A stretch of 64,000 nt of DNA, taken from positions 12,175 to 76,174 of the forward strand of contig CANGWH010000002.1 of NCBI GenBank assembly GCA_947457565.1, written 5' to 3'. Position 1 is the stretch's first letter, and each line of letters begins with the position of its first letter. The stretch comes from Flavobacteriales bacterium. Lineage in GTDB: Bacteria; Bacteroidota; Bacteroidia; NS11-12g; UBA955. The notes under the pieces are model-generated. The model saw only the letters and a program-made list of their open reading frames with translations, was not told where the DNA came from and did not search any database. This document shows positions 10,395 to 41,317 of the stretch, piece by piece. The translations under genes and the position numbers were made by a program.

Positions 10395-10400
10395 CTTACT

Positions 10401-12474: not shown

Positions 12475-12475
12475 T

Positions 12476-12889: not shown

Positions 12890-12895
12890 TAGGCA

Positions 12896-16498: not shown

Positions 16499-16512
16499 TA
16501 TTACACGATAAA

Positions 16513-17217: not shown

Positions 17218-17218
17218 T

Positions 17219-17419: not shown

Positions 17420-17432
17420 AAACAAAACTGCA

Positions 17433-28400: not shown

Positions 28401-28439
28401 GAAAGTACTAGGTTTTTTTATTAGATTCGCAATGTTTTA

Positions 28440-30356
28440 ATGAAAATAGTTTTAAGACATACCCATCTCTTACGCACGCTTTTCGCATTTTTTTGTGCAG
28501 CCACTGTCCAATATGGAACACAAGAACTATTTGCACAAACTGACATTAAAACACCGAGTTTAAATTCTCAAATTGAAGCATTTAAAAATTCGGACACCAA
28601 AGAAAAAAAAGAAAAAACTGGCAAGATAAAAGCCTTCATATCCGATACTATACCAACCTACACCGAAGCATTTGGCACATATTTAAAGGAAGTATTAGAA
28701 TATCAGAATCGCCTGGATTACTTAGACGGAGTTAAGCCAACAGCTAATGCCAAACCTAATGCTCAAACGCCAAGACGTGTATTAGAGTTGAATTATTACC
28801 AAACGGTAAAAAAGGCCAATGAAAAAGATTGGACAGGTTTAGAGTATTTGCCTTTTAACGAGAACAATCGCTCCAAAGAAATAAACAAAGAGGTTTATGG
28901 TTTTCATTGTTATTGGCAGGGAAATAAATATGAAAAGTACGATTGGAATGCATTAACTAGAATTGGATATGTTGGGTACGAAATAAATCCAGGAAATGGT
29001 TCCCCTGTTTCCACCCATAATTGGCGGAATACGGCATTACATAAACGAGCAATGCAATACGACGTAGATGTTGATATTGTTGCTAGTATTCGAGGAATTT
29101 CCAACACCAATACTTTTTTAAGTAGAAAGGAAAGTTGGAAAACCTTTGCAGATTCTCTTGTACAATTGCTTAATTTTAGCCAAGGAGATGGTGTAGTGTT
29201 AGATTTCCCTGATGTAAATAAGCAAAATGCTATGGCTTTTGTGGAATTTACACGTTTAGTAAAATATGTACTGAATGAGAATTCGCCACGATTTGAAGTA
29301 GGAATTGCACTACCCCCAGTAGACATTAACAAAGGATTTTCAGTAAAAGACCTAAAAGGGATTGCCGATCGATTTATAATATTTGCCTTTGATTACAACG
29401 ATTTCCAAGGTGTTTTTTGTGCTCCCAATGCTCCGATGCTATCCCCTAACTCCGATGCGTACAGCATGGACAGAAGCTATAATTTCTATGTTGCACAAGG
29501 GATGTTGCCAGAAACTATTACCATGGTTTTGGGAATGTACGGTCAACAGTGGGTTATGGATCAGCCGAACCCTATGAATTCAAAGGCAATTTTTGGTAGG
29601 ACGTTTTCCATTTTCGATTTCGAAGAAGACATGTTAGTTAGATTTAAACCTAACTATGACGATAAATCATTCCAATACTATTCTACGTATTCTTTGGGTG
29701 GGAAATGGATGGTTAATTGGTGTGAAAATATTTATTCGATTTCTATAAAGTCAGATTATATAAATAACAAGAAAATTGGAGGGATTGGATTCTGGGATCT
29801 TGCTCAAACCGTTAGTGGCAATGAGACATTAACAAAATTCTGGCCCTTGATTTATAAAAAATTCTCTAAACAAGACGCCAAACTTCCCGATCAAATTATT
29901 AATCAGTTCTCTGGAATAGGTAATTATAACATGGATAGTATTATTGCCTCGAACGATGCGTTAATAATGTCGGCAATTGATTTAGCTGAAAATCCATTTT
30001 TACCCGAGCAAATAGATACTAAACTATTATCAAAAGCACAGAAAAATGGTTTCCAATATAAGGAATTGGCGAAAGCCATTGGATTGCTTTTTACAATTTT
30101 AAGTGTTTGTGCTGCCATTGCCTTAGTATTTGCAATGTTCGATGAAAAGGCAAGAGAAGTTGTTTTGCACGAACACGGTGCCATGTTATTTGCACCAATA
30201 GCAATGATTTTAGTAGTAATAACTCTTAGAGTTACTAAAATAATACTCAATTCCGAAATGGAATTCCTAATTGGTGCATTATTTGGAATTGGAAGTTATT
30301 ATTTGATACAATATTTAAAGAATCGACAAATTCAAAACAATGAAGAAACCCCTTAA
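28440..30356 (+). CDS. Secreted GH18 (chitinase-like) domain protein with degenerate catalytic motif and C-terminal TM helices
   Basis: It has a signal peptide. DGVVLDFPD stands where GH18 has DGxDxDWE, so the second Asp and the catalytic Glu are replaced. GIGFWDLAQT matches the GH18 C-terminal barrel motif. The C-terminal roughly 100 aa contain 2-3 TM helices. Confidence 0.45.
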   Translation: MKIVLRHTHLLRTLFAFFCAATVQYGTQELFAQTDIKTPSLNSQIEAFKNSDTKEKKEKTGKIKAFISDTIPTYTEAFGTYLKEVLEYQNRLDYLDGVKPTANAKPNAQTPRRVLELNYYQTVKKANEKDWTGLEYLPFNENNRSKEINKEVYGFHCYWQGNKYEKYDWNALTRIGYVGYEINPGNGSPVSTHNWRNTALHKRAMQYDVDVDIVASIRGISNTNTFLSRKESWKTFADSLVQLLNFSQGDGVVLDFPDVNKQNAMAFVEFTRLVKYVLNENSPRFEVGIALPPVDINKGFSVKDLKGIADRFIIFAFDYNDFQGVFCAPNAPMLSPNSDAYSMDRSYNFYVAQGMLPETITMVLGMYGQQWVMDQPNPMNSKAIFGRTFSIFDFEEDMLVRFKPNYDDKSFQYYSTYSLGGKWMVNWCENIYSISIKSDYINNKKIGGIGFWDLAQTVSGNETLTKFWPLIYKKFSKQDAKLPDQIINQFSGIGNYNMDSIIASNDALIMSAIDLAENPFLPEQIDTKLLSKAQKNGFQYKELAKAIGLLFTILSVCAAIALVFAMFDEKAREVVLHEHGAMLFAPIAMILVVITLRVTKIILNSEMEFLIGALFGIGSYYLIQYLKNRQIQNNEETP

Positions 30357-30963
30357 TAAAGGCATTTCAAATTGTATATTGTTAGGTCTTTTGAGTTCGA
30401 TACTCATTTCGGCTTGTGCCAGGCGATCATTTTCTCAAGATTTTATTGCTCGTTTTGGCGTTGATTCATCCATGATGACTCAAATGTATTATTTTCCTAA
30501 TAGACCGTTTAATCTTCAATTTGGTATTAGGGATATTAAATTTAAAGACAATAATGGTAGTTATATAATCACCCGATATAGGAATGTAGATGAATATTTA
30601 TTTACACCAAAAACAAGGGGGATTCTTAGGTACTATTCTAAAGATACCGTAAAAATACAATTCTCAGACAGTTCAACAGGTGTGCTAAGATTTGTTAGAG
30701 ACACAGAAAACGACAGATATTTTTTAAGTGCTGACACCATTCTCGGTGAAAGATTTATCATTAATTATTTAGGATATAATTGTATAAGCAGTACACGTAT
30801 GCCTAGAATCAAATTAACCGTCCAAGGGGTTGAATTAACAAAAGTTAAACGACATAGAAAAATTCAATCTGGGGTAAGTCGTGGCAATAGTGAACTGCAA
30901 ATCCAAAGTGAACCGAAAAAACCGAAAAAAACTAGAATAAAGCCAGCTCCGGTTATAGAGTAA
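30340..30963 (+). CDS. Hypothetical lipoprotein
   Basis: A 207-aa protein with a LISAC lipobox-like signal and a basic C-terminal tail. Confidence 0.5.
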   Translation: MKKPLNKGISNCILLGLLSSILISACARRSFSQDFIARFGVDSSMMTQMYYFPNRPFNLQFGIRDIKFKDNNGSYIITRYRNVDEYLFTPKTRGILRYYSKDTVKIQFSDSSTGVLRFVRDTENDRYFLSADTILGERFIINYLGYNCISSTRMPRIKLTVQGVELTKVKRHRKIQSGVSRGNSELQIQSEPKKPKKTRIKPAPVIE

Positions 30964-31059: not shown

Positions 31060-34041
31060 CTACACGATATATTTTTTAATTAACGCTCTCCGCTGATTAA
31101 ATATCATTTCAGGATGCTCTTTTGAATCCCTAAGTTTCTTTTCACTTTCAAAACTATTTAACCAATCAACTAAGATTTCTGAACCAATAAATACGTCTTC
31201 CACTGATTTCAATTCGGCTTTACCAATAAAACGCTCTATAGTTGTTCCAAATTTGGAAGAAGAAGAAGATACCGCTGCGCGTAACGAGGTTATGTTTGAC
31301 TTTCTAAAGGCGGTTAATTTCTCAGGATTATAATGCTTTTTATGTAATATTCTTAAGGCCCAAAATTTAATTGAAACAGGAATTAACGAAAAATCTTTCA
31401 ACGCTATATCCAGATACCTCTCATTTAAATCACCGGAGAACAATGGGATTAACTGTCTCCATTGATCAATTTTTTGAGCAAACGTAGTTGGTTCGTAGAT
31501 AGGTAATAAATAAGGCTTTACAGCCGGCGGCAAAATTTCTCCCAATAGTTCTAAATTAAATATCACATCGGTATCTGTTTCAATATTATTTAAATAATTC
31601 TCAACACGTTGGGCTCCATGAATACCTAAATTAAAAGAGAGAATCTGAATAATCTGTATTTGAACTTGCTTACTTAAATGATACATATTACTTAACATAA
31701 ACAGATCTTCCACAGACTGACCATGTATTTCACTTATATTAATTTGCAACCATACCAACAACTCACTTGTATCTTTCAACAAACCAACAAATTTGGGGTA
31801 TAAATCATGCTCCGTATGAATTATTGTTTGCTGGTCCCATTGCTTGAAAATTTGGTTTCGTAAAGCAACAGGAGAATAGCTAATCAATGTGAGTATGTCA
31901 GTAATTGAGTATTTGTTTGATCGAATGATTTCAATTGCCTGAAATTGACTGCTTAATTCATTACTATTTAACAACCTCCCCAAGTCAATAACCCTATTCC
32001 CGCTAATAATTGATTCTTCTACGATTTCCTCCTCATAATCAACATCCACCGTTCTTAGAAACTCTTCCTCATTATTAATTGCTTCTGCTACCGATGTTGA
32101 TGAAACCACTGCGATTTCGTCTTCCATAATTTCGTCATGTTGCAAATATTCAATGTGCGAAATTTGTGTTTGCAACTCACCTTCTTCTACAAATTCATCA
32201 ATATTTTCTGGATTATGATCTAGATTTTCATCGTTTACAACCAATGATGCAAAATCTCCATTTTCAGACAGTATTTGTAATAGATTTTTGTAAGGCGATT
32301 TAGGCCTATCGATTTCATTGCTACTGATTGTTAACTCTGAACTAGAACTATTAAGGACTGTGAATCGCTCATAATATATTGATGGCGGGAGAACTTTAAT
32401 ACCTACACTTTCCTTATCCAAATCACTACCCAACGTATTATCAAAGGCTGATTCTAAATTATTTAAATATCCAGGTTCACCTGCAGATGAGGAACTTAAT
32501 AATTGGCTAGAATTCTCCGTATCATTGAATTTAGCCGAATTTTCATCAATTTCTCTTGATTTCAATGAGTCTGTTGATGGGAATTCTAGTTCGGTATTTG
32601 CTTTTTCTGAGGGATCAACACTCAAATTATCAACTATATTACTTTGAGGAATATCCTTAGCTGTATTGTTATTATTGCTTTGATATCCAACCGCTGACAA
32701 CTGTAAATTCTCTTTTAACGTTGTAAATCTATTCTTATAAAGTGTTGCAATGCCCTTAGACAAATTAACCCAAACCAACGATAAAATCAGGCTTGAATAT
32801 ATTAGAAATTCATTCACCGGCACATAAAAGGAAAACCAAGGGAAATATCTAAGAATTACAGGAATTAGGATAATTCCAACGGCGAGAAACCGTATTTTAA
32901 AACCAGTAAGTATTCTACGCGTTGCAAATTTCTCTGCTGCACTGCAATGATTAAGAGCAACATCTAGCATTGCCTCTGAAATATTTGCCCCTCCAACCCA
33001 AACTATGATAAAAAGAACACTAATCGAAAAGTTATAAAAAAGAGATTGTTCATCGCCAAACACCCGATTAGCCACCAATATTATTGAAAACAATAAAGTA
33101 AGAACTGGAATGATTATCACACTTACCGTTGTTTTAATTCTCCTTAATTGGGTTTTCCCAAATTCTTGATAGATTACGGCAAAGACATTCAACCAAATTA
33201 CCAAAGTAATAAACCTCTGAAAATTTTTATCATGGTTTAAGGTAAGCTTTTCCAATTCCATAGAAAATACAGATGCCGTAAAGATTAATAATATCAGAGT
33301 ACTCAAATAAATAAGTCGGAAATAATTACTTGATAAATAGACACTATTCTTCTTAATCATGTTTGGAGGTTTAATTTCTTGAATGGCCAAACCATGGTTA
33401 CCCGATTTAATATTGTCTGTTAAATTAAATCGAAATAACCATAAAATTCCAAAAGTTGTGATCCACAAATAATCTTGTGGAAGAAACATATCACTTAAAA
33501 ACCACTCGATGAAAATTAATGTTCCAACTATTGAAACTGAATAAATGGTTCTATTGATATTTATGCGATTAAAATCTGGGACATCCGCTAGACCTTGTTT
33601 TTTGTTTATACTAAATAATTGCGCAGATTGTACTTCTAAAATACTTTTAAAACCTGTGATAATAGGAAATACGATAGATAAATTAACAATTTTGAGCAAT
33701 CGTAATATAAGCGGGTGGTCAATCGGCCACGAATATTGTAATAACAATAATGTTATAAATGCTAAAACAAAAATACCAAAACGCCTCAGTGCACCCAAAT
33801 AGCCGTAATCGGTTAACAGTAGCTTTGACAACCGATTAAAGAGGACTTGAAAACCTATATAACAAACTGCAATTAATAATACATCTATCTCAATACCTGT
33901 AGAATAATCTTTTCTATAAACTCCTTCAACAAGCAGGGCTGAGATTACACCTAACAAAACAAATTGATAGCCTAGCTTTTTTGCGATCCAAAATCCACCA
34001 GTAGAAAGACCGCTATAAAACCATTTTCTTAACCAATTCAT
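31060..34041 (-). CDS. 993-aa polytopic membrane protein with a low-complexity linker and a large C-terminal soluble domain
   Basis: About 10 predicted TM helices in the first 450 aa, then an S/N/E/D-rich linker, then a roughly 430-aa C-terminal domain with no recognised motif. It follows the TonB-dependent receptor gene by 3 nt. Confidence 0.6.
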   Translation of the reverse strand: MNWLRKWFYSGLSTGGFWIAKKLGYQFVLLGVISALLVEGVYRKDYSTGIEIDVLLIAVCYIGFQVLFNRLSKLLLTDYGYLGALRRFGIFVLAFITLLLLQYSWPIDHPLILRLLKIVNLSIVFPIITGFKSILEVQSAQLFSINKKQGLADVPDFNRININRTIYSVSIVGTLIFIEWFLSDMFLPQDYLWITTFGILWLFRFNLTDNIKSGNHGLAIQEIKPPNMIKKNSVYLSSNYFRLIYLSTLILLIFTASVFSMELEKLTLNHDKNFQRFITLVIWLNVFAVIYQEFGKTQLRRIKTTVSVIIIPVLTLLFSIILVANRVFGDEQSLFYNFSISVLFIIVWVGGANISEAMLDVALNHCSAAEKFATRRILTGFKIRFLAVGIILIPVILRYFPWFSFYVPVNEFLIYSSLILSLVWVNLSKGIATLYKNRFTTLKENLQLSAVGYQSNNNNTAKDIPQSNIVDNLSVDPSEKANTELEFPSTDSLKSREIDENSAKFNDTENSSQLLSSSSAGEPGYLNNLESAFDNTLGSDLDKESVGIKVLPPSIYYERFTVLNSSSSELTISSNEIDRPKSPYKNLLQILSENGDFASLVVNDENLDHNPENIDEFVEEGELQTQISHIEYLQHDEIMEDEIAVVSSTSVAEAINNEEEFLRTVDVDYEEEIVEESIISGNRVIDLGRLLNSNELSSQFQAIEIIRSNKYSITDILTLISYSPVALRNQIFKQWDQQTIIHTEHDLYPKFVGLLKDTSELLVWLQINISEIHGQSVEDLFMLSNMYHLSKQVQIQIIQILSFNLGIHGAQRVENYLNNIETDTDVIFNLELLGEILPPAVKPYLLPIYEPTTFAQKIDQWRQLIPLFSGDLNERYLDIALKDFSLIPVSIKFWALRILHKKHYNPEKLTAFRKSNITSLRAAVSSSSSKFGTTIERFIGKAELKSVEDVFIGSEILVDWLNSFESEKKLRDSKEHPEMIFNQRRALIKKYIV

Positions 34042-34044
34042 TGG

Positions 34045-36750
34045 TTAAAAATTAAATACCATACTACCAAAAAACATCCTACCATACTGAGGTATCATTG
34101 CACTATAACTGCCAGTACCTAGGCGAGCTCCGGGGCTGAAAAATTTGGCGTTCGTTAAATTATAGCCTTTTATTTGCAAGCTAACTTGCTTAAATAATTG
34201 TACATCAATATTCATATTCACCAATTGATAACCCGGTATTTCTTTAAGATTAGAAAGACTACCAAACGTCTCCCAACCTGTTGGTTTCGCGGAAACATGA
34301 TTTAACATAAACTGAATATTCGTTTTAATATGAGGTAAAAAAACGCCCAATCCTGCATTGGCATTAAACGGGGATATATCAGACATAACTTTTACCCTAG
34401 CACTATCTGTTTCATTAACTTTTGTATTTAAATGGGTAGTGTTTGCATAAAAATATACATTTTCTGAGATATTTAATTTCAATACTGTTTGAAGGCCCAT
34501 TACTTCAGCGGTTCCTGTATTTTCAAATATTTCCAATTTATCAACTAAACCGTTTCGAGTAATATTCAAATACGAAGCATAAAATCCATTTACCTCAATG
34601 GAAGACTGATTCTCCGATCCCAAGGCTTTAAAGACAACTAATTCCAAATCACGCACTTTTTCAGGTTTCAATAACTCATTACCAACCTTTACATTTGGGA
34701 TGGTTGAAAATCGATTATATTGGCTTGCATCCATGATTGCTTCAGAGTATACCGCTTTAACAATCCATTTATTGGGATAATACACTATTGAATATCGAGG
34801 ATTAAATTTCAATCGATAGCCCAATGTGCTTCGCTCATTAAAAATTTTGTTATCTACCCTACCCCCAATTCCGATATTTAAAAATTTTGACGGATTGGAG
34901 TAATTATACTGACCAAAAGTACCAAAATCTACAACGGTAATATGGTTTCCTCCTTCTAACTTAGGATTAACCCTCCCATATAATGACGGATTTTCTCTTG
35001 GATAGGTAATATAATCTACTTGTAAAAGTCCATTTCTAATTTCGGCTCCAAAAATTAAATCACTGTGTTGGCTTAATTGATAATTAAATCTCAGTTCATC
35101 CCTGTACTGCTTACTTTGTTGGGAATAGTATCTGCGCAAATATCCAGGTTCTACATTTTTTATTAAACTATCCAGCGTCAATTGTCCAACACCTCCGCCA
35201 CCATTCGCAAATGATCTATATTGAGTAATGATCGAATTGTTCCCAAAATCTGATGTTTTGAAATAGGTATTATTAGTAACTATTAATTTATCTCCAAAAC
35301 GTTTGGTATACTTACAAAAGTATATCTGTTGTCGTACATGCCAAGAATTAAAATCGCTATTTACAGCAAATAGACTATCTACATAATCGGGCGATGCCCC
35401 TTCAACGCTTTCCCAAAATTGTCCACCTACAACAAAGTCACCCAGCGTAATTTTAGTAGAGAAATAATAATTTGCATCCTTTTCCTTAAAGAGATTTCTA
35501 CCGGGTTTAAATTGTTGTCCGGCTTCCCCTAGATACTTTTTACCGAGTTGGTAATTGGATTGATCCAGTGAATCCATCTTTTTAAGTGCATATTCGGTAG
35601 GAATTATTCGTGTACTGTCCGCTGAATACGTGTGGTAAAGTCCATTTTTATCGATTGATTTAAAATAACCTATGGCATTTGTATCGCCTTTCGCGCCATA
35701 ACGCTTAAAGGTATCAATCGTCATTATTTCTCTGTAATAGTCAGGGGTTGATTTCCATTTTCCATCCCAATTAGGAAACTGACTTAAATCCAAATCCTCG
35801 GTGGTATACACTCTGGCTGTTGCTTGCGCGAAAACACCATTAGACCCCAAACTACCATTTATTTCAGCCATATTGGTATTGAGTGCTCCTTTAGTAGCGA
35901 TACCGTTTACATTTACCAAACGCTTACCTGCAATATCTTTATTTTTAAATACATCCGACGGTGATTTAGTTACGATATTTACAACTCCTGTAAAAGCATT
36001 AGGTCCATAGATAGTAGATGCCGGACCATAAATAATTTCAATTCGTTTAATATTTGAAACGGGAAACTGACGAGACAAAAACACAGCGTTAGTCCATAAT
36101 TCGTTATCATCTACCCCATCAATCATAAATAACATACGCTCTGTTAATGCCGAAGTTCGATAACCACGTTGATAAACGGTAGCGTATGATGTACCAAAGG
36201 TTCTAGAAACATCAAAACCAGGCAAATCATAAAATATCTGTGTAATATCTTGATATCCTCTGCGCTTAATATCTTCCTCTGTTATTACCTGTATAGTTGC
36301 GGGCGCTAATTCAATTTTCTCTGCTTTTTTAGAAACCGATGTAGTGAGATTGGCCTGCATCGACGCACGAATAAATCTAACTTGTAATTTTAATCGCTCT
36401 GGATCTCTTAGTTCTGTTTCAAAATTATCCTTTAGAGTTAAAATAGCTGTTATTGTGCGGTTCGCTGCTTCAATAGAATCCATAGCTAAGTAAGCCATTG
36501 CAATCCATTTCATGGCATCTATTTTTTCATTCTCAGCAAAACCATTGCGTTGTATACAGGTATTTAATCTTGAAATACAGGTAAAGAATCCCCCCAATTG
36601 ATAGTCTAATTCAGCTTGGGTTATTGTATTTTTCCCACAAATAGACGACTCGATATTCGACATATCGGTGGTATCGGATTGTGCCTTTACACTGCCAATA
36701 CAAATTTGAAATAATAAAACTAAAACTACTGCTAAAATTTCTTTTCTCAT
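34045..36750 (-). CDS. TonB-dependent outer-membrane receptor with an atypical Cys-containing N-terminal extension
   Basis: It has a signal peptide, a plug-domain motif (IEIIYGPASTIYGPNAFTGVVNIVTK) and an 800-aa barrel with a C-terminal aromatic residue (FNF). The roughly 130 aa before the plug are not like CarbopepD_reg. Confidence 0.7.
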   Translation of the reverse strand: MRKEILAVVLVLLFQICIGSVKAQSDTTDMSNIESSICGKNTITQAELDYQLGGFFTCISRLNTCIQRNGFAENEKIDAMKWIAMAYLAMDSIEAANRTITAILTLKDNFETELRDPERLKLQVRFIRASMQANLTTSVSKKAEKIELAPATIQVITEEDIKRRGYQDITQIFYDLPGFDVSRTFGTSYATVYQRGYRTSALTERMLFMIDGVDDNELWTNAVFLSRQFPVSNIKRIEIIYGPASTIYGPNAFTGVVNIVTKSPSDVFKNKDIAGKRLVNVNGIATKGALNTNMAEINGSLGSNGVFAQATARVYTTEDLDLSQFPNWDGKWKSTPDYYREIMTIDTFKRYGAKGDTNAIGYFKSIDKNGLYHTYSADSTRIIPTEYALKKMDSLDQSNYQLGKKYLGEAGQQFKPGRNLFKEKDANYYFSTKITLGDFVVGGQFWESVEGASPDYVDSLFAVNSDFNSWHVRQQIYFCKYTKRFGDKLIVTNNTYFKTSDFGNNSIITQYRSFANGGGGVGQLTLDSLIKNVEPGYLRRYYSQQSKQYRDELRFNYQLSQHSDLIFGAEIRNGLLQVDYITYPRENPSLYGRVNPKLEGGNHITVVDFGTFGQYNYSNPSKFLNIGIGGRVDNKIFNERSTLGYRLKFNPRYSIVYYPNKWIVKAVYSEAIMDASQYNRFSTIPNVKVGNELLKPEKVRDLELVVFKALGSENQSSIEVNGFYASYLNITRNGLVDKLEIFENTGTAEVMGLQTVLKLNISENVYFYANTTHLNTKVNETDSARVKVMSDISPFNANAGLGVFLPHIKTNIQFMLNHVSAKPTGWETFGSLSNLKEIPGYQLVNMNIDVQLFKQVSLQIKGYNLTNAKFFSPGARLGTGSYSAMIPQYGRMFFGSMVFNF

Positions 36751-36754
36751 CCCA

Positions 36755-39700
36755 TTATTTTTTGAGTTCTGCTTCTAAATATACCAAGTCCAACAGATGA
36801 AAACGAATTGAAAAATCCTCAGAAATTGAAACCAGACCATGGTGATTAGGGATCCAACGACTATCATAAATCCATGAATCATGAATTTTCATTTTAACCA
36901 CTTTGTTCGCATAATCTGAGGTTAAAAATTCATCAATTCCAATGATTCGTAGATAATTATCAAACCCCGTTGATAATATGACCGCTTTACCATTTAAATC
37001 ATAAACCCAATTTAACGATGTTACTTCCGATAAATGCAATGTTTTAAAGACTGAAAATGTATTTTGATTGGTATAATAATAACCCATTCTACCTCGTCTA
37101 CTTCCTATTGCGATAGTATCACCGGTTGAAGAAAACGACATAGCAGTTACAAATTGAACATCTATTTTGGCTGATTTGGTAGGTTTACCAAGTAAATTCT
37201 TATTATCTGCAAAGAATTCCAAATTACCATTTCTTATCCATGCCACGGAAGATTTATTTGAGAATGCAACGGCAGAAACTCCCGATACAATAGTTGGTGT
37301 TTGCATCGTTTCGTTCCAAATGTACGCCGTTGTACCTTGTTGAATTATTACATTTCCAGCGATAACATTCACTTTTGTAAAATTATTAAATGGTATTTTG
37401 GCCGGTATTTGTTTTTCTACTACTAGGTTATTGGCCGCAACGGATGCAACAGCCAAATTACCATTTTTTAAACCCAAATAAAATTTGCCGGTTATCTCAT
37501 TAAGAGCAATAGATTGAATTCCATTAATCGTTTTTGTAGAATTTATTAGATTTAAACGATTATGATCTGCTGAAATTTTAAAGACACGAACGGTTCCATT
37601 TTCCGATAAAGCAATTACTTGGTCGAGTTTCTTGTAATACAACATCTGCCTTACAGGACTGCCAGTTCGTAGCAAATTTCTTTCCTGATTATTCCAAGCC
37701 CAGTTAAAATACATTGGCAAAAGAATATGGTTGTAAAAATCTGTAAATTTAAGTTTCCTAGCATCTTCCAAAGCTGTCAGAACTTCTTGTTTACTTTTTT
37801 CAAATTCTTTTTCTTCTAATTTAATTACAGAGCTTAAGGCTGTTTGAGCAATAACTGATTTTTTTGTATTCTCTTCAACAATGGCGGTTTGTTTTTCTGC
37901 AAATTTTCGTTGATTCTCTGCATATTCAGCAGCAGCCGTTGCTTTGGTTTCGTTTGATTTTGCTAATTCTGCCGCAATCTTTGCTGCCTTTGTGGCATTA
38001 TTGGCTTTCACTAGATTCGCTTCTGCTTGCACTTGCAGTGCTTTAATTTCTTTAAATTGCTTTTCTAAATCGGACTGAGCAGAAGAAATCTCCTTTACTA
38101 AAAGATCTGCCTTTGCTTTTTCACCTCTGGCTATTTCTGTTTGTTCTTTGGCTTCTATTTCTTTTAACTCTGCTTTTTTTCTATTTTCCTCTGCTTTGAT
38201 TCGTTCAAAAAATGCCCATACTCCAAAGCCTAAGGCTATTACACCAATAATTGAAATTGTAATAGAAAACCTTCTAGCCCGAAGTAATTTTTGTTTCTGC
38301 TGATTTTCTGCAAATTCAATTTCCCGTTTTTGTTGTTCTTCGGAGTATTCCAAAAACAACATTGCTCGTTCAAAATTTCCATTAATTCTTGATGCCCAAG
38401 CAATATTGGGCGAATTATCGGCTCTCCATTTTAAGGCTAATGTAAGCTCTGGATCTCGCCATAAACTACCTTTTCTATTTTCGTACTGATCAGCAGCTTC
38501 ACACAATCGAACATACATATCAATCGACTCACTTTCTTCTTCCACCCAACGAATTAATCGCTGCCAAACACGCATTAAACTCTCGTGAGAAATATCTAAA
38601 ACCGAAGATTCTGATAGCGAAGACTTTGCTGCAGGAACTAAAAATGCTCGTCCTACTTTTCTGAATGTATTTGCAACTTGTGAAACCTCTTCAAAACTAG
38701 CACCTACTAATTCCATCACCTTGGACATCGGTGTAGGCCTGCGAACACCTCTACCATCGTTACCTCGATCTGTTAAAGTTCGAAACAAGGCTCTACAAAC
38801 ATCCTGTAATCTATCGGTTTTTAATTCTAAAAAGGCTTCTTCAGCGTGTAGCGATAAGGCTTGCGTTACTGTACCCACCTCCTCATAGTGAAAAACATCT
38901 AATTTACCTTCTCGCTTATATTTATCATTCCAACATTCCCAAACTCGCATAAGTACATGCTGTAAAATGGGTAATTGATCTTGATTCTCACCTATGTCTT
39001 GCAGCAAACGATTAACCAACTCATTGCTTACTGTCGCACCACCCACTGCTGCGGGGCCAACAATAGCAGATCGTAGCTGATCACTCGTCATTTTAGGTAC
39101 TAAGTAATTTCCTTCGTTAATTGCTTCGGGAAGTCCTTCAAAATGGGTACAATCACCCAAAAAATCAGAGCGCATTGTGATGACAACAAAAATCGGTAAT
39201 TCTGTAAACTTAGTTGCCCATAACAAGTTATCTAACAAATGTTTGGCTTCAATAAAATGCGTAGAATTATCGGCAGATGTAAATCGAAACAACTCTTCAA
39301 ATTGGTCGATTAACAACAGAAGATTTTCACCAGGTACTGCAAATTTTTGATAAAATTGTTCCAAACCATGGGCGGATTTTTTCAGTGTGGCTTCTATCGA
39401 ATTTAAACCATCATTACTATTCAACCCAAGTTGTTCTAAATGATTCTTCGTATTATCGAACAACGCTTTGGCTAAGTTTTTCGTAGGGTTTGACCCAGGG
39501 CGAAAATTAACAACATTCCATAAAGAACTTGTTCCAGACATGAATCCGCTATACAGCGATGGTATTACCCCGGATTTCACCAATGATGATTTACCACTTC
39601 CAGAAGTACCTAATACAGCTAAAAACTTATTCTTTCTTAGTTTCCTTATTAAATCATCTATTTGCTGTTCTCTACCATAAAATAAAAAATCTTCTTCAGG

Positions 39701-39766
39701 TTCAAAAGACCTTAATCCTGGGTAAGGATTGGAAACCTCAATACTATTAATTATTAGTTCTTCCAC
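36755..39766 (-). CDS. STAND-class NTPase (NB-ARC/AAA_16-like) with coiled-coil and C-terminal WD40-like beta-propeller
   Basis: The N-terminus (NPYPGLRSFEPEEDFLFYGRE...FLAVLGTSGSGKSSLVKSG) is typical of bacterial STAND-WD40 proteins. It has a Walker B (LLLLIDQFEELF), a TM or amphipathic segment, a K/E-rich coiled coil around aa 500-650 and repeated beta-strand blocks in the C-terminal 350 aa. Confidence 0.7.
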   Translation of the reverse strand: MEELIINSIEVSNPYPGLRSFEPEEDFLFYGREQQIDDLIRKLRKNKFLAVLGTSGSGKSSLVKSGVIPSLYSGFMSGTSSLWNVVNFRPGSNPTKNLAKALFDNTKNHLEQLGLNSNDGLNSIEATLKKSAHGLEQFYQKFAVPGENLLLLIDQFEELFRFTSADNSTHFIEAKHLLDNLLWATKFTELPIFVVITMRSDFLGDCTHFEGLPEAINEGNYLVPKMTSDQLRSAIVGPAAVGGATVSNELVNRLLQDIGENQDQLPILQHVLMRVWECWNDKYKREGKLDVFHYEEVGTVTQALSLHAEEAFLELKTDRLQDVCRALFRTLTDRGNDGRGVRRPTPMSKVMELVGASFEEVSQVANTFRKVGRAFLVPAAKSSLSESSVLDISHESLMRVWQRLIRWVEEESESIDMYVRLCEAADQYENRKGSLWRDPELTLALKWRADNSPNIAWASRINGNFERAMLFLEYSEEQQKREIEFAENQQKQKLLRARRFSITISIIGVIALGFGVWAFFERIKAEENRKKAELKEIEAKEQTEIARGEKAKADLLVKEISSAQSDLEKQFKEIKALQVQAEANLVKANNATKAAKIAAELAKSNETKATAAAEYAENQRKFAEKQTAIVEENTKKSVIAQTALSSVIKLEEKEFEKSKQEVLTALEDARKLKFTDFYNHILLPMYFNWAWNNQERNLLRTGSPVRQMLYYKKLDQVIALSENGTVRVFKISADHNRLNLINSTKTINGIQSIALNEITGKFYLGLKNGNLAVASVAANNLVVEKQIPAKIPFNNFTKVNVIAGNVIIQQGTTAYIWNETMQTPTIVSGVSAVAFSNKSSVAWIRNGNLEFFADNKNLLGKPTKSAKIDVQFVTAMSFSSTGDTIAIGSRRGRMGYYYTNQNTFSVFKTLHLSEVTSLNWVYDLNGKAVILSTGFDNYLRIIGIDEFLTSDYANKVVKMKIHDSWIYDSRWIPNHHGLVSISEDFSIRFHLLDLVYLEAELKK

Positions 39767-41217
39767 GACTCAATCCAATTTTTTAATTCCAACGAAAAGT
39801 CCGAAGAGGATTCTGCGATTAAGTCAAAATCTTTACTTTTCAATTGTATTGCCGATTTTTCTTTACCTCGAACAATTAATTTGGGCATAGACTTATTAGC
39901 CCTCCCGTAAGAAGTTGCACGTAACAAGTCTCTAGATCTACTTTGTAACCAATTGGTTGATCCTGAAGCAAAGTACAATATCACAGCGTCACAGTTTTGA
40001 AGTGACCTAGAATGAGCTAGTCTTATTTCAGATTCATCTACGTTTGGATCAATCTGTAATACTTCACAACCTTCCAATTTGCAAATTGTATACACTTCCT
40101 GAATATTGGAAGAATCGGCAACATCCGCAATCAAATAGACCTTATTTGGCTTTGATTCACTGTCATTCATTTCTACTTTTTTTGAATTCAAGAGTTTTCT
40201 TGCTTCTTCAATTTTACTAGGCAATAAAGATTGTAATTCTGTAAGTTCCCCTTCTATTAGTGTAGTATTTTCCGATTTAATCGAACTTCGCAGATCCTCA
40301 ATCAGCAATTTCTGTCTTTCATCTGTTAACTTTACATTCTTAGGAATCCAAATAATCTTTGTTAAACTGTTATCAACAGAAAACTCTTCTGAAATATCAT
40401 TTTGGATTTCAGCCAATGATCGTGCTGTTCCTTCGGGTACCGTCCCATAAATTCCGCCTAGTAGATGAATGGCCAAATTACATTGCTGCATATTTCTACT
40501 GATTTCCATTTGACATGAAGGCATTCGCTGAACAATATTCGTTCTTGGAATAATCGTATAACCCTGTTTTAGCAAATCTCTTCTGATGGTTTCTCTCGCT
40601 ACTAGTTGATCTTCTGCCGCCTCTGCTAAATAAATTGTCAAATTTTTCTCATCGGGTTTATTCTCCATCCAACGATGATTGGTTTGAATTGAATCTTTAT
40701 TTAAAAACTTAGCAATATCTGATGCTAATATTTCCAATAACTCATCATATTCCCTACTCGTATTATTGTAGTTGCTTGGCGACATTTCTAAAACCGTATT
40801 GGATTCCTCATCCTTTTTAAAAAAGGGATATTGGATATCAGAACTCAATACTAAAGGGACCAATTCAACTGGAACAGGCTGTCTTAAAACCGGGAAAAAT
40901 TTCATATTGGAATCACCATTAAGTAATTCCTTCGAAATTTCCTCTAACTCCACAGTAAACTTATCGGATCGAACGGATTTGAACGATAATATCGAAATAA
41001 TGGCAGCAACTTTTTTTAATTCACTGCAATATTCAGGCTCAAATCTATCCAATGAATTTTTAGATTTAACCTCTAAAACCGTAATTTCTCTATCCAATAA
41101 AACTTCGATTTTAGGAATTAAATGTTCTTTTAATTCAAGTAGCCAACTCTTACTGGAAGTAGCGGTTCCGGCATCAAATACCGAAAAATTAAATCCAATA
41201 TCAAATTTGGCCAACAT
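39754..41217 (-). CDS. Multi-domain protein with repeated Rossmann-like, TIR- or DUF4062-like modules; partner of the STAND NTPase
   Basis: A 487-aa protein with segments such as NLTIYLAEAAEDQLVARETIRRDLLKQGYTII and KVYLIADVADSSNIQEVYTICKLEGCEV that resemble TIR-like or DUF4062 openings (beta-strand, acidic residue, helix). It overlaps the NTPase gene by 13 nt. The assignment is tentative. Confidence 0.35.
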   Translation of the reverse strand: MLAKFDIGFNFSVFDAGTATSSKSWLLELKEHLIPKIEVLLDREITVLEVKSKNSLDRFEPEYCSELKKVAAIISILSFKSVRSDKFTVELEEISKELLNGDSNMKFFPVLRQPVPVELVPLVLSSDIQYPFFKKDEESNTVLEMSPSNYNNTSREYDELLEILASDIAKFLNKDSIQTNHRWMENKPDEKNLTIYLAEAAEDQLVARETIRRDLLKQGYTIIPRTNIVQRMPSCQMEISRNMQQCNLAIHLLGGIYGTVPEGTARSLAEIQNDISEEFSVDNSLTKIIWIPKNVKLTDERQKLLIEDLRSSIKSENTTLIEGELTELQSLLPSKIEEARKLLNSKKVEMNDSESKPNKVYLIADVADSSNIQEVYTICKLEGCEVLQIDPNVDESEIRLAHSRSLQNCDAVILYFASGSTNWLQSRSRDLLRATSYGRANKSMPKLIVRGKEKSAIQLKSKDFDLIAESSSDFSLELKNWIESWKN

Positions 41218-41237: not shown

Positions 41238-41267
41238 CAAATCTATTGATTTATCTAATATAATCAA
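41238..41267 (-). promoter_or_regulatory. Putative Bacteroidetes-type promoter of the 41217-31060 operon
   Basis: On the minus strand TTG lies 19 nt before TAGATTTG (TAnnTTTG). The motif ends 20 nt upstream of the ATG at 41217. Confidence 0.35.
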
Positions 41268-41282: not shown

Positions 41283-41317
41283 AAAAAGCCCATAGAAATA
41301 GATTCTAAGGGCTTTTT
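41283..41317. terminator. Rho-independent terminator downstream of pckA (bidirectional geometry)
   Basis: AAAAAGCCC-(17 nt loop)-GGGCTTTTT is a 9-bp stem including the GC core, flanked by T-runs on both strands. It lies between the pckA stop and the downstream operon promoter. Confidence 0.6.

What the first reader, a model, noticed from the sequence alone, without database searches (positions are those of the whole stretch)
31060..41217. Tightly coupled four-gene operon: TIR/Rossmann-like protein, STAND NTPase-WD40, atypical TonB-dependent receptor and 993-aa membrane protein
Gene boundaries overlap or are 3-4 nt apart (39754-39766 overlap, 36750/36755, 34041/34045). A Bacteroidetes-type promoter motif sits just upstream and a clean terminator at 41283-41317 insulates it from pckA. 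STAND NTPases with WD40 sensors and TIR-like partners usually act as cytoplasmic conflict or defence switches. Here they are co-transcribed with an outer-membrane TonB-dependent receptor carrying a novel Cys-containing N-terminal extension. The fourth gene is a polytopic inner-membrane protein with a large cytoplasmic domain. This suggests a trans-envelope signalling or defence module linking an extracellular ligand to a cytoplasmic NTPase switch. I do not recognise this as a described system.
Basis: partly seen in the sequence, partly recalled or inferred. Interest (0 to 1): 0.7.

Follow-up and report, generated by a model that had tools for sequence, protein, structure and literature searches.

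The report
Envelope-spanning STAND switch beside injection system
Four tightly packed genes encode a set of proteins predicted to reach from the cytoplasm to the outer membrane, built around an ATP-driven switch protein. The set sits next to a phage-tail-like injection machine here and in several distant bacteria, so it is an undescribed candidate for controlling or anchoring that machine.

Summary
Four minus-strand ORFs (487, 1003, 901 and 993 aa) overlap or lie 3-4 nt apart, downstream of a strong pckA terminator.

The domain guesses were mostly right:
- P2 is a full-length nSTAND1 NTPase (E 1.9e-95).
- P3 has a TonB-receptor plug.
- P1 belongs to a TIR + DUF4062 family.
- P4 belongs to an MFS-like + HEAT-repeat family.

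First, P2 has one transmembrane helix after the NTPase, seen in 76 of 83 homologues across phyla. A roughly 170-residue alanine-heptad coiled coil and the WD40 propeller follow it, so the sensor is predicted periplasmic. Second, the window carries a complete contractile injection system (CIS) cluster at 5128-27129.

The same four-gene order recurs in Chitinophagia, Sphingobacteriia and the window's own lineage. Nine of 11 such loci with usable flanks lie within 10 kb of CIS genes. The other gene arrangements of this family are rarely CIS-adjacent, and most sampled CIS loci lack the cassette.

P3's N-terminal domain is conserved, is also found fused to small outer-membrane barrels, and weakly resembles TssQ of the Bacteroidota T6SS membrane complex.

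Best reading: an envelope-spanning STAND/TIR signalling module attached to the CIS. I found no published description. The function is inferred, not shown.

The parts
41283..41317 (-). Intrinsic terminator of pckA, upstream of the operon
   Evidence: Ten-pair stem with one mismatch, followed by a T-run. Folds at -18.5 kcal/mol, z = -5.7.
41238..41267 (-). Candidate Bacteroidetes-type promoter: TTG, 19 nt spacer, TAGATTTG
   Evidence: Read directly from the sequence. It is a consensus match only and was not tested statistically.
39754..41217 (-). P1: cytoplasmic protein of three alpha/beta domains. Domain 1 is a degenerate TIR (about residues 5-175), domain 2 is DUF4062-like (192-345), domain 3 is a further alpha/beta domain (356-487).
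   Evidence: - The window protein has only a sub-threshold DUF4062 hit.
- In the family, DUF4062 hits 35 of 40 members and TIR_2 hits 30 of 40.
- The AF2 model (mean pLDDT 67.6) shows three alpha/beta domains, and Foldseek matches TIR domains at probability about 1 but E 0.005-0.05.
- The Glu of the SxWCxxE motif is kept (E90), but W is replaced by K and C by F.
36755..39766 (-). P2: membrane-spanning nSTAND1 NTPase (whole gene)
   Evidence: PF20703 at E 1.9e-95. Thousands of full-length homologues of about 1000-1070 aa.
38471..39727 (-). P2 nSTAND1 NTPase module (residues 14-432), predicted cytoplasmic
   Evidence: Matches profile positions 1-375 of 379. Walker A and Walker B are invariant across 10 homologues. 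There is no N-terminal signal peptide.
38207..38263 (-). P2 single transmembrane helix (residues 502-520)
   Evidence: Hydropathy 2.27. A helix at the same offset, about 450 residues after the P-loop, is present in 76 of 83 homologues across phyla.
37697..38206 (-). P2 periplasmic coiled-coil stalk (residues 521-690), K/A/E-rich
   Evidence: Invariant Ala every 7 residues (A525, 532, 539, 581 ... 616) in 10 homologues of 35-43% identity. At 0.15 nm per residue this gives about 25 nm; that figure is an inference.
36758..37678 (-). P2 C-terminal WD40-like beta-propeller (residues 697-1003), predicted periplasmic
   Evidence: Several beta-propeller/WD40 Pfam families hit at E 1e-7 to 1e-8, all below their curated cut-offs. 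Homologues hit many WD40 families.
34045..36750 (-). P3: outer-membrane TonB-receptor-type barrel (whole gene)
   Evidence: Plug domain, 75 bits. TIGR01786 aligns to residues 138-901 but below its cut-off. Orthologues at 38-42% identity hit TonB_dep_Rec_b-barrel.
36346..36681 (-). P3 N-terminal extension (residues 24-135): helical, TPR-like, TssQ-like domain with conserved Cys38. It is followed by a conserved (L/I/V)xSSVSKKAE segment at the position where a TonB box would sit.
   Evidence: - Conserved in 22 sequences, fused either to full TonB-type receptors or to small OMP_b-brl_2 barrels.
- 18 of 22 members hit NCBIfam TssQ_fam (best E 1e-6; the window protein scores 21 bits against a cut-off of 65).
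35983..36306 (-). P3 plug domain (residues 149-256)
   Evidence: PF07715 at E 7.4e-21. Matches the plugs of CirA, BtuB and PhuR in the PDB.
31060..34041 (-). P4: polytopic inner-membrane protein. It has about 10-12 helices in residues 1-450, an acidic low-complexity linker at 451-676, and a helical-repeat domain at 677-993.
   Evidence: - No Pfam hit for the window protein.
- In the family of 32 members: HEAT_2 hits 21, MFS_1 hits 16, cNMP_binding hits 12 and TLC hits 1.
- Hydropathy supports the helices.
- The C-terminal domain is the conserved part.
- The AF2 model failed (mean pLDDT 36).
5128..27129 (+). Neighbouring contractile injection system cluster. It encodes the Pvc16-like cap, sheath, two tube proteins, a Cis7-like tube protein, a VgrG-like spike, PAAR, gp25, a 1200-aa baseplate protein, 234- and 845-aa proteins, and a 2395-aa tape measure.
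   Evidence: Pfam hits. The PAAR ORF was read. The sheath is closest to AlgoCIS (7adz, E 7.7e-129) and to the Anabaena thylakoid CIS (7b5h).
27153..30963 (.). Three envelope proteins between the CIS and the cassette: a TPR lipoprotein (27153-28400, minus strand), a GH18-like protein without the catalytic motif and with C-terminal TM helices (28440-30356, plus strand), and a 207-aa lipoprotein (30340-30963, plus strand).
   Evidence: The same three genes lie between the tape-measure gene and the cassette in L009, L013 and L014. A GH18-like gene also lies between the cassette and the CIS in Sporocytophaga L050.

Best explanation
The four genes are one operon. Together they encode an envelope-spanning signalling module that is an accessory of the adjacent contractile injection system (CIS).

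Proposed parts:
- P2 is the core. Its nSTAND1 ATPase sits in the cytoplasm. One transmembrane helix carries a roughly 25-nm alanine-heptad coiled-coil stalk and a WD40 propeller across the periplasm.
- P3 is the outer-membrane partner. Its barrel serves as an anchor. Its periplasmic TssQ-like N-terminal domain, the part conserved across barrel types, is the likely contact for the P2 propeller.
- P1 (TIR + DUF4062 + a third alpha/beta domain) is translationally coupled to P2. It is the cytoplasmic output or adaptor recruited when the NTPase oligomerises.
- P4 (MFS-like membrane domain + HEAT-like cytoplasmic domain) is a membrane scaffold or a responder to a nucleotide signal.

Proposed working: an event at the outer membrane or in the periplasm, such as target contact or envelope damage, changes the P3-P2 contact. 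The signal crosses the inner membrane through the P2 stalk and helix. The STAND module then oligomerises in a nucleotide-dependent way and assembles P1. This sets when or where the neighbouring CIS is assembled or fired, or commits the producer cell to death and so releases particles.

Shown here: the gene structure, the domain families, conservation of the gene order, the transmembrane helix, and CIS adjacency.

Inferred: the topology, the P2-P3 contact, the direction of signalling, the nature of the output, and every link to CIS activity.
For: 1. Operon structure with overlaps and 3-4 nt gaps. The same tight order recurs in Sediminibacterium, Olivibacter, Daejeonella and two uncultured lineages, at 25-42% protein identity.
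2. P2 is a full-length nSTAND1 match. It has a single TM helix about 450 residues after the P-loop in 76 of 83 homologues from Bacteroidota, Acidobacteriota, Cyanobacteria, Planctomycetota and Chloroflexota. The stalk has invariant heptad alanines.
3. An outer-membrane partner is a recurrent theme, but the barrel type is interchangeable: a full TonB-type receptor in 19 loci, or a small OMP_b-brl_2 barrel in 31 loci. Both carry the same N-terminal domain.
4. That N-terminal domain hits TssQ_fam in 18 of 22 members. TssQ is a component of the experimentally defined T6SS-iii membrane complex of Bacteroidota (PMC10781749).
5. CIS adjacency, by gene arrangement:
- Cassettes with the window's gene order are within 10 kb of CIS genes in 9 of 11 evaluable loci: the window, L009, L013, L014, L006, L016, L095, L096 and L097. 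These fall into two different gene arrangements.
- Independent junctions occur in Sporocytophaga L050 and Acidobacteriaceae L061.
- The published eCIS gene tables list similar pairs in Microscilla marina and Dechloromonas aromatica (PMC8213781 Supplementary Data 3).
- The same paper's table lists WD40 as 15-fold enriched in eCIS loci across 6 phyla.
6. Three more envelope proteins (two lipoproteins and a membrane-anchored, non-catalytic GH18-like protein) sit between the CIS and the cassette, and are co-conserved with them.
7. A related CIS in Aureispira has a C6-symmetric OM-periplasm-IM complex whose proteins are not assigned in the paper I read. Its authors propose signalling from outside the cell to the baseplate (bioRxiv 10.1101/2024.01.29.577165).
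Against: - The link to the CIS rests on gene neighbourhood only.
- Outside this gene order, adjacency is rare: 1 of 29 loci with P4 first, 1 of 38 loci with only P1-P2, and 0 of 9 other receptor-containing loci. The wider family can therefore sit, and perhaps act, without a neighbouring CIS.
- In the reverse direction, only 2 of 80 metagenomic CIS loci found through their AAA ATPase carry the cassette downstream. Among roughly 27 with at least 8 kb downstream, only 1 does.
- Several of the 9 positive loci share ancestry. They represent two deep lineages, not nine independent events.
- Genome-wide co-occurrence could not be tested.
- The TssQ similarity is far below the curated cut-off and lies in a TPR-like domain.
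- The window's own P1 is a degenerate TIR, and its P4 matches no profile.
- No evidence bears on what is sensed or on what the output is.
Confidence: 0.5

Rival explanations
1. Autonomous envelope-surveillance immune or abortive-infection module. A membrane-spanning STAND senses phage entry or an attack in the periplasm and activates the TIR protein to deplete NAD+ or make a nucleotide signal. It lies near CIS loci only because conflict genes tend to cluster.
For: - STAND + TIR is the classic defence pairing, and nSTAND1 was defined within predicted conflict systems (PMC8195603).
- TIR_2 hits 30 of 40 P1 homologues. The Glu at the position of the catalytic Glu of TIR NADases (my recall of that motif) is present in 26 of 40, including the window's E90.
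- Most P1-P2 loci outside this gene order have no CIS within 10 kb.
- P4 relatives carry cNMP-binding domains (12 of 32), and Chitinophagia add a TrkA_N/RyR protein. Both fit nucleotide signalling.
Against: - No PADLOC model matches beyond a trivial P-loop hit.
- No relatives were found on viral contigs.
- The flanks are housekeeping genes, and the locus is syntenic across lineages whose P2 proteins are only 41% identical. That is unlike a mobile defence island.
- 9 of 11 cassettes with this gene order abut a CIS, in two different arrangements, with further junctions in other phyla.
- A dedicated outer-membrane partner and a periplasm-spanning stalk are not features of known defence STANDs.
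Confidence: 0.2
2. Structural membrane complex. P2, P3 and P4, with the neighbouring lipoproteins, form the trans-envelope anchor of a cell-attached, T6SS-iv-like CIS. The NTPase would serve assembly rather than signalling.
For: - The architecture reaches from inner to outer membrane.
- P3 carries a TssQ-like domain.
- Tape measures at cassette-linked loci are long: 2395 aa here and 1365-1517 aa for the complete genes in Chitinophagia. The only solved comparison I have is the 92-nm AlgoCIS sheath.
- Aureispira T6SS-iv has a three-part OM-periplasm-IM complex, with no proteins assigned to it in the paper I read.
- In Microscilla the WD40/barrel pair abuts the CIS locus that lacks fibre genes and has the long tape measure, not the locus with fibre-like genes.
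Against: - Most sampled CIS loci of the same clade lack an adjacent cassette, although they also have long tape measures.
- A 22-stranded barrel is too narrow for a CIS tube (my recall of tube diameter, about 8-9 nm), and it is replaced by a small barrel in Cytophagales.
- No TssN, TssO, TssP or TssR homologues were detected.
- A STAND switch with a TIR partner is a signalling design, not a scaffolding one.
- Whether Aureispira has the cassette could not be checked.
Confidence: 0.15
3. An ordinary TonB-dependent nutrient or metal uptake locus with its own regulator proteins.
For: P3 has a plug domain. Its best NCBIfam alignments are to haem, transferrin, B12 and siderophore receptors. P4 relatives look like MFS transporters.
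Against: - All the receptor hits are far below the family cut-offs (for example 83 bits against 324).
- The locus has no SusD, ExbBD, TonB, sigma/anti-sigma or binding-protein genes.
- The receptor is replaced by a small, plug-less barrel with the same N-terminal domain in 31 loci.
- The conserved core of the family is the TIR + STAND pair, not the transporter.
Confidence: 0.03

Closest known systems
nSTAND1 NTPase conflict systems (Kaur, Burroughs, Iyer and Aravind 2021, eLife; Pfam PF20703)
   Same: The P2 NTPase module is a full-length, high-scoring member. A TIR-type partner and a repeat-domain 'sensor' follow the general STAND logic.
   Different: The described nSTAND1 systems use effector-associated adaptor domains, FGE/lectin sensors and cytoplasmic logic. 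Here the effector-like protein is a separate gene, and the protein spans the membrane with a periplasmic stalk and propeller. It has dedicated outer-membrane and polytopic inner-membrane partners and sits at CIS loci. None of these features is mentioned in the papers I searched.
TonB-dependent transducers / cell-surface signalling (FecA-FecR-FecI type)
   Same: An outer-membrane plug-and-barrel receptor carries an extra periplasmic N-terminal domain ahead of the TonB-box position. It is encoded next to a single-pass inner-membrane protein whose cytoplasmic part is a switch.
   Different: The N-terminal domain is not the STN signalling domain but a TssQ-like helical domain. The inner-membrane partner is a STAND ATPase, not an anti-sigma factor. 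There is no ECF sigma factor. The receptor can be swapped for a small barrel.
T6SS envelope modules: the TssNQOPR membrane complex of Bacteroidota T6SS-iii (PMC10781749), and the TagQRST-PpkA-PppA threat-sensing pathway of Pseudomonas H1-T6SS (recalled from my own knowledge)
   Same: Envelope-spanning accessory proteins encoded beside a contractile machine. P3 has a weak TssQ-like domain. A Bacteroidales variant of the cassette adds a HAMP-PP2C phosphatase gene, which recalls PppA.
   Different: No homologues of TssN, O, P, R, PpkA or Fha. The associated machine is an Afp/AlgoCIS-type CIS, not T6SS-i or T6SS-iii. The switch is a STAND NTPase rather than a kinase.
Trans-envelope complex and antenna of the Aureispira T6SS-iv (Lien et al., bioRxiv 2024)
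   Same: A CIS of the same broad clade in Bacteroidota with a long sheath. It has an OM part, a periplasmic part and an IM part, with proposed outside-in signalling to the baseplate.
   Different: That complex is known only as tomographic density, and the paper I read assigns no genes to it. I could not test whether Aureispira encodes the cassette. Nothing in the cassette accounts for a 132-nm antenna.
Apaf-1-like WD40 STANDs and bacterial Avs/NLR-related defence proteins
   Same: P-loop STAND + WD40 propeller. Activation by oligomerisation is the expected mechanism.
   Different: Those proteins are soluble, with cytoplasmic sensors and fused effectors. No sequence match to any solved STAND was found.

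Membership tests
nSTAND1 NTPase (PF20703) | Full-length profile match above the gathering score | tested here: met
   321 bits against a cut-off of 27.1. Residues 14-432 cover profile positions 1-375 of 379.
nSTAND1 NTPase (PF20703) | Intact Walker A and Walker B motifs | tested here: met
   GTSGSGKSS and LLLLIDQFEE. G53-S61 and D154-E158 are invariant across 10 homologues.
Known anti-phage defence STAND systems (Avs, bNACHT and others in PADLOC) | Match to a curated defence-system model | tested here: not met
   PADLOC gives only a 16-bit P-loop hit to mad8 for P2 and nothing for P1, P3 or P4.
Known anti-phage defence STAND systems | Soluble protein with a cytoplasmic sensor and a fused effector | tested here: not met
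   A single TM helix lies between the NTPase and the propeller in 76 of 83 homologues. The effector-like P1 is a separate gene.
Known anti-phage defence STAND systems | Defence-island or mobile-element context | tested here: not met
   The flanks are pckA, msrA, PAP2, gldB, nadE, dnaG and similar genes. Synteny holds across lineages. No relatives on viral contigs.
TIR domain (PF13676/PF01582), NAD+-cleaving type | Profile match above the gathering score | tested here: not met
   The window's P1 has no TIR hit at E <= 0.01. Homologues do: TIR_2 in 30 of 40, best E 2e-15. The fold search gives TIR domains at weak E-values.
TIR domain, NAD+-cleaving type | Conserved Glu in the SxWCxxE segment (catalytic Glu, per my recall of TIR NADases) | tested here: inconclusive
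   E90 is present in the window protein, and Glu is present in 26 of 40 homologues, but the neighbouring W and C are K and F here. Activity cannot be tested with these tools.
DUF4062 (PF13271) | Profile match above the gathering score | tested here: not met
   18.2 bits against a cut-off of 24.7 for the window's P1, residues 195-268. 35 of 40 homologues match at E <= 0.01.
TonB-dependent receptor | Plug domain | tested here: met
   PF07715, 75 bits against a cut-off of 23.9.
TonB-dependent receptor | 22-stranded barrel profile (PF00593) and a TonB box | tested here: inconclusive
   No PF00593 hit in the window protein. Orthologues in L006, L007 and L095 do hit it. TIGR01786 aligns to residues 138-901 below its cut-off. 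A conserved (L/I/V)xSSV segment sits where a TonB box would be, but its function is untested.
TonB-dependent transducer (FecA type) | STN signalling domain, with adjacent anti-sigma and ECF sigma genes | tested here: not met
   No STN hit. No sigma or anti-sigma genes in the locus.
T6SS-iii membrane complex TssNQOPR | TssQ family match | tested here: inconclusive
   The window's N-terminal extension scores 21 bits (E 2.8e-4) against a cut-off of 65. 18 of 22 homologous extensions hit the model, best E 1e-6.
T6SS-iii membrane complex TssNQOPR | Presence of TssN, TssO, TssP and TssR | tested here: not met
   No such NCBIfam hits for P1-P4 or for the P4 family.
CIS (Afp/PVC/AlgoCIS/T6SS-iv) accessory gene | Encoded beside CIS core genes, in independent lineages | tested here: met
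   The window. 9 of 11 evaluable loci with this gene order, plus L050, L061, L098 and L101. Microscilla and Dechloromonas in published tables.
CIS accessory gene | Present at most CIS loci of the clade, or genome-wide co-occurrence with CIS | tested here: not met
   Only 2 of 80 CIS loci found through the AAA ATPase have the cassette downstream.
MFS / nucleotide-transporter-like + HEAT protein (P4) | Profile matches to MFS_1 or TLC, and to HEAT | tested here: inconclusive
   The window's P4 has none. The family has HEAT_2 in 21 of 32, MFS_1 in 16, cNMP_binding in 12 and TLC in 1. The NTP/NDP exchanger model hits 1 of 32.

The most novel reading that the evidence does not exclude
The cassette encodes the protein components, so far unassigned in the literature I could search, of the envelope-spanning trigger or anchor of long, cell-attached contractile injection systems (T6SS-iv-like) in Bacteroidota and beyond. 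Oligomers of a membrane-spanning STAND ATPase would form periplasmic stalks that bridge an outer-membrane barrel to the inner membrane. They would convert target contact directly into firing or assembly of the machine. This would be the first STAND NTPase acting as a trans-envelope receptor, and the first molecular identity for the complex seen by tomography in Aureispira.
Probability: 0.15. Interest if true: 0.9.

Novelty: new variant of a known kind. Interest (0 to 1): 0.68.

Why it matters
STAND NTPases are studied as cytoplasmic sensors in immunity and cell death. A widespread subfamily that spans the inner membrane, presents its propeller in the periplasm and has a dedicated outer-membrane partner would extend that model to sensing across the cell envelope.

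Contractile injection systems of the Afp/AlgoCIS/T6SS-iv clade are abundant in Bacteroidota. How they are anchored, triggered or released remains largely unknown. The trans-envelope complex imaged in Aureispira has no proteins assigned to it in the paper I read.

This cassette gives four concrete, conserved candidate genes. They can be deleted, tagged and imaged in culturable carriers such as Sediminibacterium, Sporocytophaga and Microscilla. It also explains an uninterpreted statistic in a published survey: WD40 domains are 15-fold enriched at eCIS loci.

Tried and rejected
- Viral contigs. The scan with the P2 alignment returned 363 pattern matches and no relatives.
- PDB sequence searches. 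P1, P2 and P4 matched nothing. The tape-measure C-terminus also matched nothing.
- P4 structure. The AF2 model, built on a shallow 5-sequence alignment, reached only mean pLDDT 36. I did not use it for a fold search.
- P1 structure. The AF2 model is of moderate quality (mean pLDDT 67.6). The Foldseek hits to TIR domains are weak in E-value, so I treat them as supporting evidence only.
- Single-sequence searches. P4 and P1 recover only close relatives (5 and 6 in the word-indexed search; 21 for P4 in the exhaustive search), because both proteins evolve fast.
- K+ channel idea for the TrkA_N/RyR partner in Chitinophagia. Rejected because it has no selectivity-filter motif.
- GH18 as an active chitinase or lysin. 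It has no DxDxE motif.
- Universal CIS component. Rejected by the reverse survey.
- Organism identity. Not resolved: the cluster members carry no taxon names. Related MAGs are labelled only Bacteroidota or Bacteroidia.
- Aureispira. The supplement held for that paper has no WD40, TonB or TIR entries, so presence of the cassette there is untested.
- Sigma-70 promoter scan. No more sites than chance, and not suited to Bacteroidota.

Full report
**Observation.**
- P1: 39754-41217, 487 aa
- P2: 36755-39766, 1003 aa
- P3: 34045-36750, 901 aa
- P4: 31060-34041, 993 aa

P1 and P2 overlap by 13 nt. The P2/P3 gap is 4 nt and the P3/P4 gap is 3 nt. Upstream, pckA ends at 41392. A hairpin at about 41283-41317 follows it, folding at -18.5 kcal/mol (z = -5.7) with a T-run after it. 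A TAGATTTG box with TTG 19 nt upstream lies 20 nt before the P1 start codon (read). This is a consensus match only. The sigma-70 scan is uninformative here.

**What the four proteins are.**

*P2.* It is a full-length nSTAND1 NTPase: PF20703, 321 bits, residues 14-432, with invariant Walker A and B motifs. After the NTPase comes a single hydrophobic helix at residues 502-520. A K/A/E-rich stretch follows, in which an alanine is invariant every seventh residue across homologues of only 35-43% identity. That pattern marks a coiled coil of about 170 residues. The last 300 residues hit WD40/beta-propeller profiles at E 1e-7 to 1e-8, below their curated cut-offs. The N-terminus has no signal peptide and an NTPase needs cytoplasmic nucleotide. 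I therefore infer that the stalk and propeller are periplasmic. A helix at the same offset, about 450 residues after the P-loop, is present in 76 of 83 homologues from five phyla. It is a defining feature of this subfamily.

*P3.* It has a signal peptide that would be cleaved before Gln24, a 112-residue extension, a plug domain (75 bits), a divergent barrel, and a C-terminal FNF.

*P1.* In the window it gives only a sub-threshold DUF4062 hit. Of 40 homologues, 35 hit DUF4062 and 30 hit TIR_2 (best E 2e-15). An AF2 model (mean pLDDT 67.6) shows three alpha/beta domains, with weak Foldseek matches to TIR domains. The Glu of the SxWCxxE segment is kept (E90), but the flanking W and C are not.

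*P4.* It matches no profile. It has about 10-12 hydrophobic helices in residues 1-450, then an acidic linker, then a helical C-terminal domain. Among 32 homologues, HEAT_2 hits 21, MFS_1 hits 16, cNMP_binding hits 12 and TLC hits 1.

**Conservation of the arrangement.** Close relatives (about 70% identity) share the whole neighbourhood, so they say nothing about selection on the arrangement. Distant ones do. The same P1-P2-P3-P4 order, with gaps of -1 to 22 nt, occurs in:
- Sediminibacterium ginsengisoli
- Olivibacter sitiensis
- a Daejeonella MAG
- two further long contigs (L095, L096)
- a second uncultured lineage (L009)

Protein identities to the window proteins are 26-35% for P1, 35-41% for P2 and 38-42% for P3. 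For P4, only the C-terminal domain is recognisable.

A scan of one genome per species gave 80 loci. An HMM survey of these shows that the core of the family is the P1-P2 pair. It is present in 65 of 82 loci (the 80 scan loci plus earlier ones), across Bacteroidota, Acidobacteriota, Cyanobacteria, Planctomycetota and Chloroflexota. P4 occurs in 41 loci and a full TonB-type receptor in 19.

In Cytophagales the order is P4-P1-P2, followed by a protein of about 350 aa. The N-terminal 100 residues of that protein align with the P3 extension, and the rest is a small OMP_b-brl_2 barrel. The extension is therefore a separable, module-specific domain, and the barrel it sits on is interchangeable.

Aligned over 22 sequences, the extension has a near-invariant Cys, invariant Tyr50 and Gly53, and a TPR-like helical pattern. 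Taken one by one, 18 of 22 members hit the NCBIfam TssQ family (best E 1e-6), while other TPR families hit at most 3. All scores are far below the curated cut-off, so this is a lead, not a membership. TssQ belongs to the experimentally defined membrane complex of the Bacteroidota T6SS-iii (PMC10781749).

**The missed context.** Positions 5128-27129 of the window encode a complete contractile injection system: Pvc16-type cap, sheath, two gp19-type tube proteins, a CIS_tube protein, a VgrG-like spike, a PAAR protein, gp25, a 1200-aa baseplate protein, and a 2395-aa tape measure. The sheath is closest to AlgoCIS and to the Anabaena thylakoid-anchored CIS among solved structures.

Three envelope proteins lie between this cluster and the cassette: a TPR lipoprotein, a GH18-like protein, and a 207-aa lipoprotein. 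The GH18-like protein has a signal peptide and three C-terminal membrane helices but lacks the DxDxE catalytic motif.

Neighbourhoods elsewhere:
- In Sediminibacterium (two species) and in three further homologues that I picked only for contig length, the cassette follows the CIS tape-measure and AAA-ATPase genes on the same strand. The two are directly adjacent or separated by a few genes.
- In the window's lineage and its relatives at 39-41% P2 identity (L009, L013, L014), the cassette is convergent with the tape-measure gene, and the same three envelope genes lie between them.
- Altogether, 9 of 11 loci with this gene order and usable flanks have CIS genes within 10 kb. The exceptions are Olivibacter and Mucilaginibacter hurinus.
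- Other junctions occur in Sporocytophaga (cassette variant, then GH18-like, then cap, sheath and tubes) and in an Acidobacteriaceae MAG (P1-P2, then cap, sheath, tubes and spike).
- The gene tables of Geller et al. 2021 list two more. In Microscilla marina, a 1071-aa WD40 protein and an OMP_b-brl_2 protein lie directly before afp7. In Dechloromonas aromatica, a TIR_2 gene and a 1211-aa WD40 gene follow afp15 and a toxin gene. I could not verify that these are nSTAND1 proteins.
- The same paper's enrichment table gives WD40 as 15-fold enriched in eCIS loci (31 occurrences, 6 phyla), filed under 'Other'.

**Limits of the association.**
- Outside this gene order, adjacency is rare: 1 of 29 loci with P4 first, 1 of 38 loci with only P1-P2, and 0 of 9 other receptor-containing loci.
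- In the reverse direction, I scanned metagenomes with the CIS AAA ATPase and obtained 80 CIS loci. Only two carry the cassette downstream. Of about 27 loci with at least 8 kb downstream, only one does.
- The cassette is therefore an accessory of a subset of CIS loci, not a core component.
- The nine positive loci represent two deep lineages plus a few extra junctions, not nine independent events.

**Mechanism.**

*Shown:* the four genes form a conserved, tightly packed unit. P2 is a STAND NTPase with a conserved membrane helix. An outer-membrane protein with a shared N-terminal domain is a recurrent partner. The cassette with this gene order is usually encoded at a CIS locus.

*Inferred:* P2 is oriented with the NTPase inside the cell and the stalk and propeller outside. 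The stalk would be about 25 nm long at 0.15 nm per residue, which is similar to the width I recall for the periplasm. The propeller would meet the P3 N-terminal domain under the outer membrane. A change there would be relayed across the inner membrane and drive nucleotide-dependent oligomerisation, as established for STAND proteins generally. That oligomer would assemble the translationally coupled TIR/DUF4062 protein.

*The output is open.* It could be a nucleotide signal. Supporting hints are that P4 relatives carry cNMP-binding domains, and that Chitinophagia add a membrane-anchored TrkA_N/RyR protein and Bacteroidales a HAMP-PP2C phosphatase. It could instead be a scaffold that positions or fires the CIS. 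Or it could be NAD+ depletion and death of the producer cell, which would release particles.

I put 0.5 on the general statement that this is a CIS-linked, envelope-spanning STAND signalling module. I put much less on any specific output.

**Rivals.**
- *Autonomous envelope-surveillance immune module (0.2).* This fits the STAND + TIR pairing and the many loci without a CIS. It is disfavoured by the absence of any PADLOC match, the housekeeping flanks and deep synteny, and the repeated CIS junctions.
- *Purely structural trans-envelope anchor for a cell-attached, T6SS-iv-like CIS (0.15).* This fits the architecture, the TssQ-like domain, and the unassigned OM-periplasm-IM complex seen in Aureispira. 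It is disfavoured by the many CIS loci of the same clade that lack it, the interchangeable barrel, and the signalling-type components.
- *Ordinary TonB-dependent uptake (0.03).* Unlikely, because the receptor is dispensable in the family and no uptake partners are present.

**Comparison with what is known.** P2 is a member of nSTAND1. Beyond that, the cassette is not a member of any described system that I could test:
- It fails the features of defence STANDs (soluble protein, fused effector, curated model match).
- It fails the features of FecA-type transducers (STN domain, sigma and anti-sigma genes).
- It lacks the rest of the TssNQOPR complex.

It resembles cell-surface signalling and the T6SS threat-sensing cascade in logic only. 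Full-text searches found no paper that describes a membrane-spanning nSTAND1, its outer-membrane partner, or its link to CIS.

I rate it a new variant of a known kind: STAND/TIR signalling modules. There is a 0.15 chance that it is the component set, unassigned in the literature I could search, of the trans-envelope trigger or anchor of long CISs, which would be a new kind of system.

**Unresolved.**
- The organism (an uncultured freshwater Bacteroidota MAG lineage).
- The fold of P4 (the AF2 model failed).
- Whether P1 is catalytic.
- What is sensed.
- Whether the many cassette loci without a neighbouring CIS depend on a CIS encoded elsewhere in the genome.

Noticed in passing
window 5128-27129: Complete contractile injection system cluster with a very long tape-measure gene (19942-27129, 2395 aa). 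That gene lies in the lowest-GC part of the window (29% against 35-40% elsewhere). No Afp15/Cis15-type AAA ATPase is encoded anywhere in the window, although Chitinophagia relatives have one directly after the tape-measure gene.
   Followed up: partly
window 12175-12465 (+): An unlisted short ORF encodes a PAAR-repeat protein with three PAAR motifs (PPAARVTD, GLPAALMGD, GKPAARMGD). It lies between the spike gene and the gp25 gene.
   Followed up: no
window 28440-30356 (+): A GH18-like protein with a signal peptide and three C-terminal membrane helices. It lacks the DxDxE catalytic motif (DFPDV in its place). It is co-conserved between the CIS and the cassette in L009, L013 and L014, and a GH18-like gene also sits between the cassette and the CIS in Sporocytophaga (L050:15064-16663). 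It may bind a glycan or peptidoglycan rather than cleave it.
   Followed up: partly
window 27153-28400 (-) and 30340-30963 (+): A TPR lipoprotein and a 207-aa lipoprotein with no Pfam hit flank the GH18-like gene. Both are conserved together with it next to the tape-measure gene in related lineages.
   Followed up: partly
L006:6521-8476, L007:6526-8472, L095:6481-8439: In Chitinophagia and Sphingobacteriia, a fifth gene directly precedes P1. It encodes a roughly 650-aa membrane-anchored protein with a TrkA_N (NAD-binding-type) domain and a C-terminal RyR domain, and has no K+ selectivity filter. It is absent from the window's cassette.
   Followed up: partly
L029:6581-8593, also L040 and L041: A Bacteroidales variant of the cassette has a HAMP + SpoIIE/PP2C phosphatase gene between P4 and P1.
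   Followed up: no
L026:14143-15441 and 28 other loci: In the Cytophagales variant, a conserved protein of about 430 aa with no Pfam hit follows the small-barrel gene. Its function is unknown.
   Followed up: no
L059:4272-8459, L061:4122-8366, L042: In Acidobacteriaceae, a 1200-1400-aa OMP_b-brl_4/CarboxypepD_reg/Plug outer-membrane protein lies next to P1-P2. This is another, unrelated outer-membrane barrel partner.
   Followed up: no
L096:15681-17159: In one Chitinophagia-type locus, PhzF-like and acetyltransferase genes are inserted between the receptor gene and P4. An Asp/Glu racemase-acetyltransferase gene follows P4 in L006 and L095.
   Followed up: no
L089:7635-9977 and L090:2407-10569: The Planctomycetaceae relatives are much larger: P1 is about 780 aa and P2 reaches about 2700 aa. 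One of the 40 P1 homologues scanned carries a protein kinase domain; by its size it is probably L089, but the tool does not report which member.
   Followed up: no
window 46907-48031 (-): A gldB gliding-motility lipoprotein gene, so the organism is probably a gliding member of Bacteroidota. The other flanking genes are housekeeping (alaS, pckA, msrA, nadE, dnaG, tatC).
   Followed up: no
PMC8213781 Supplementary Data 3 (Microscilla marina contigs 1 and 55): Microscilla marina has two CIS loci. The WD40 + small-barrel pair abuts the locus with a 1301-aa tape measure and no fibre-like genes. It does not abut the locus with Peptidase_S74 fibre-like genes and a roughly 600-aa tape measure.
   Followed up: partly
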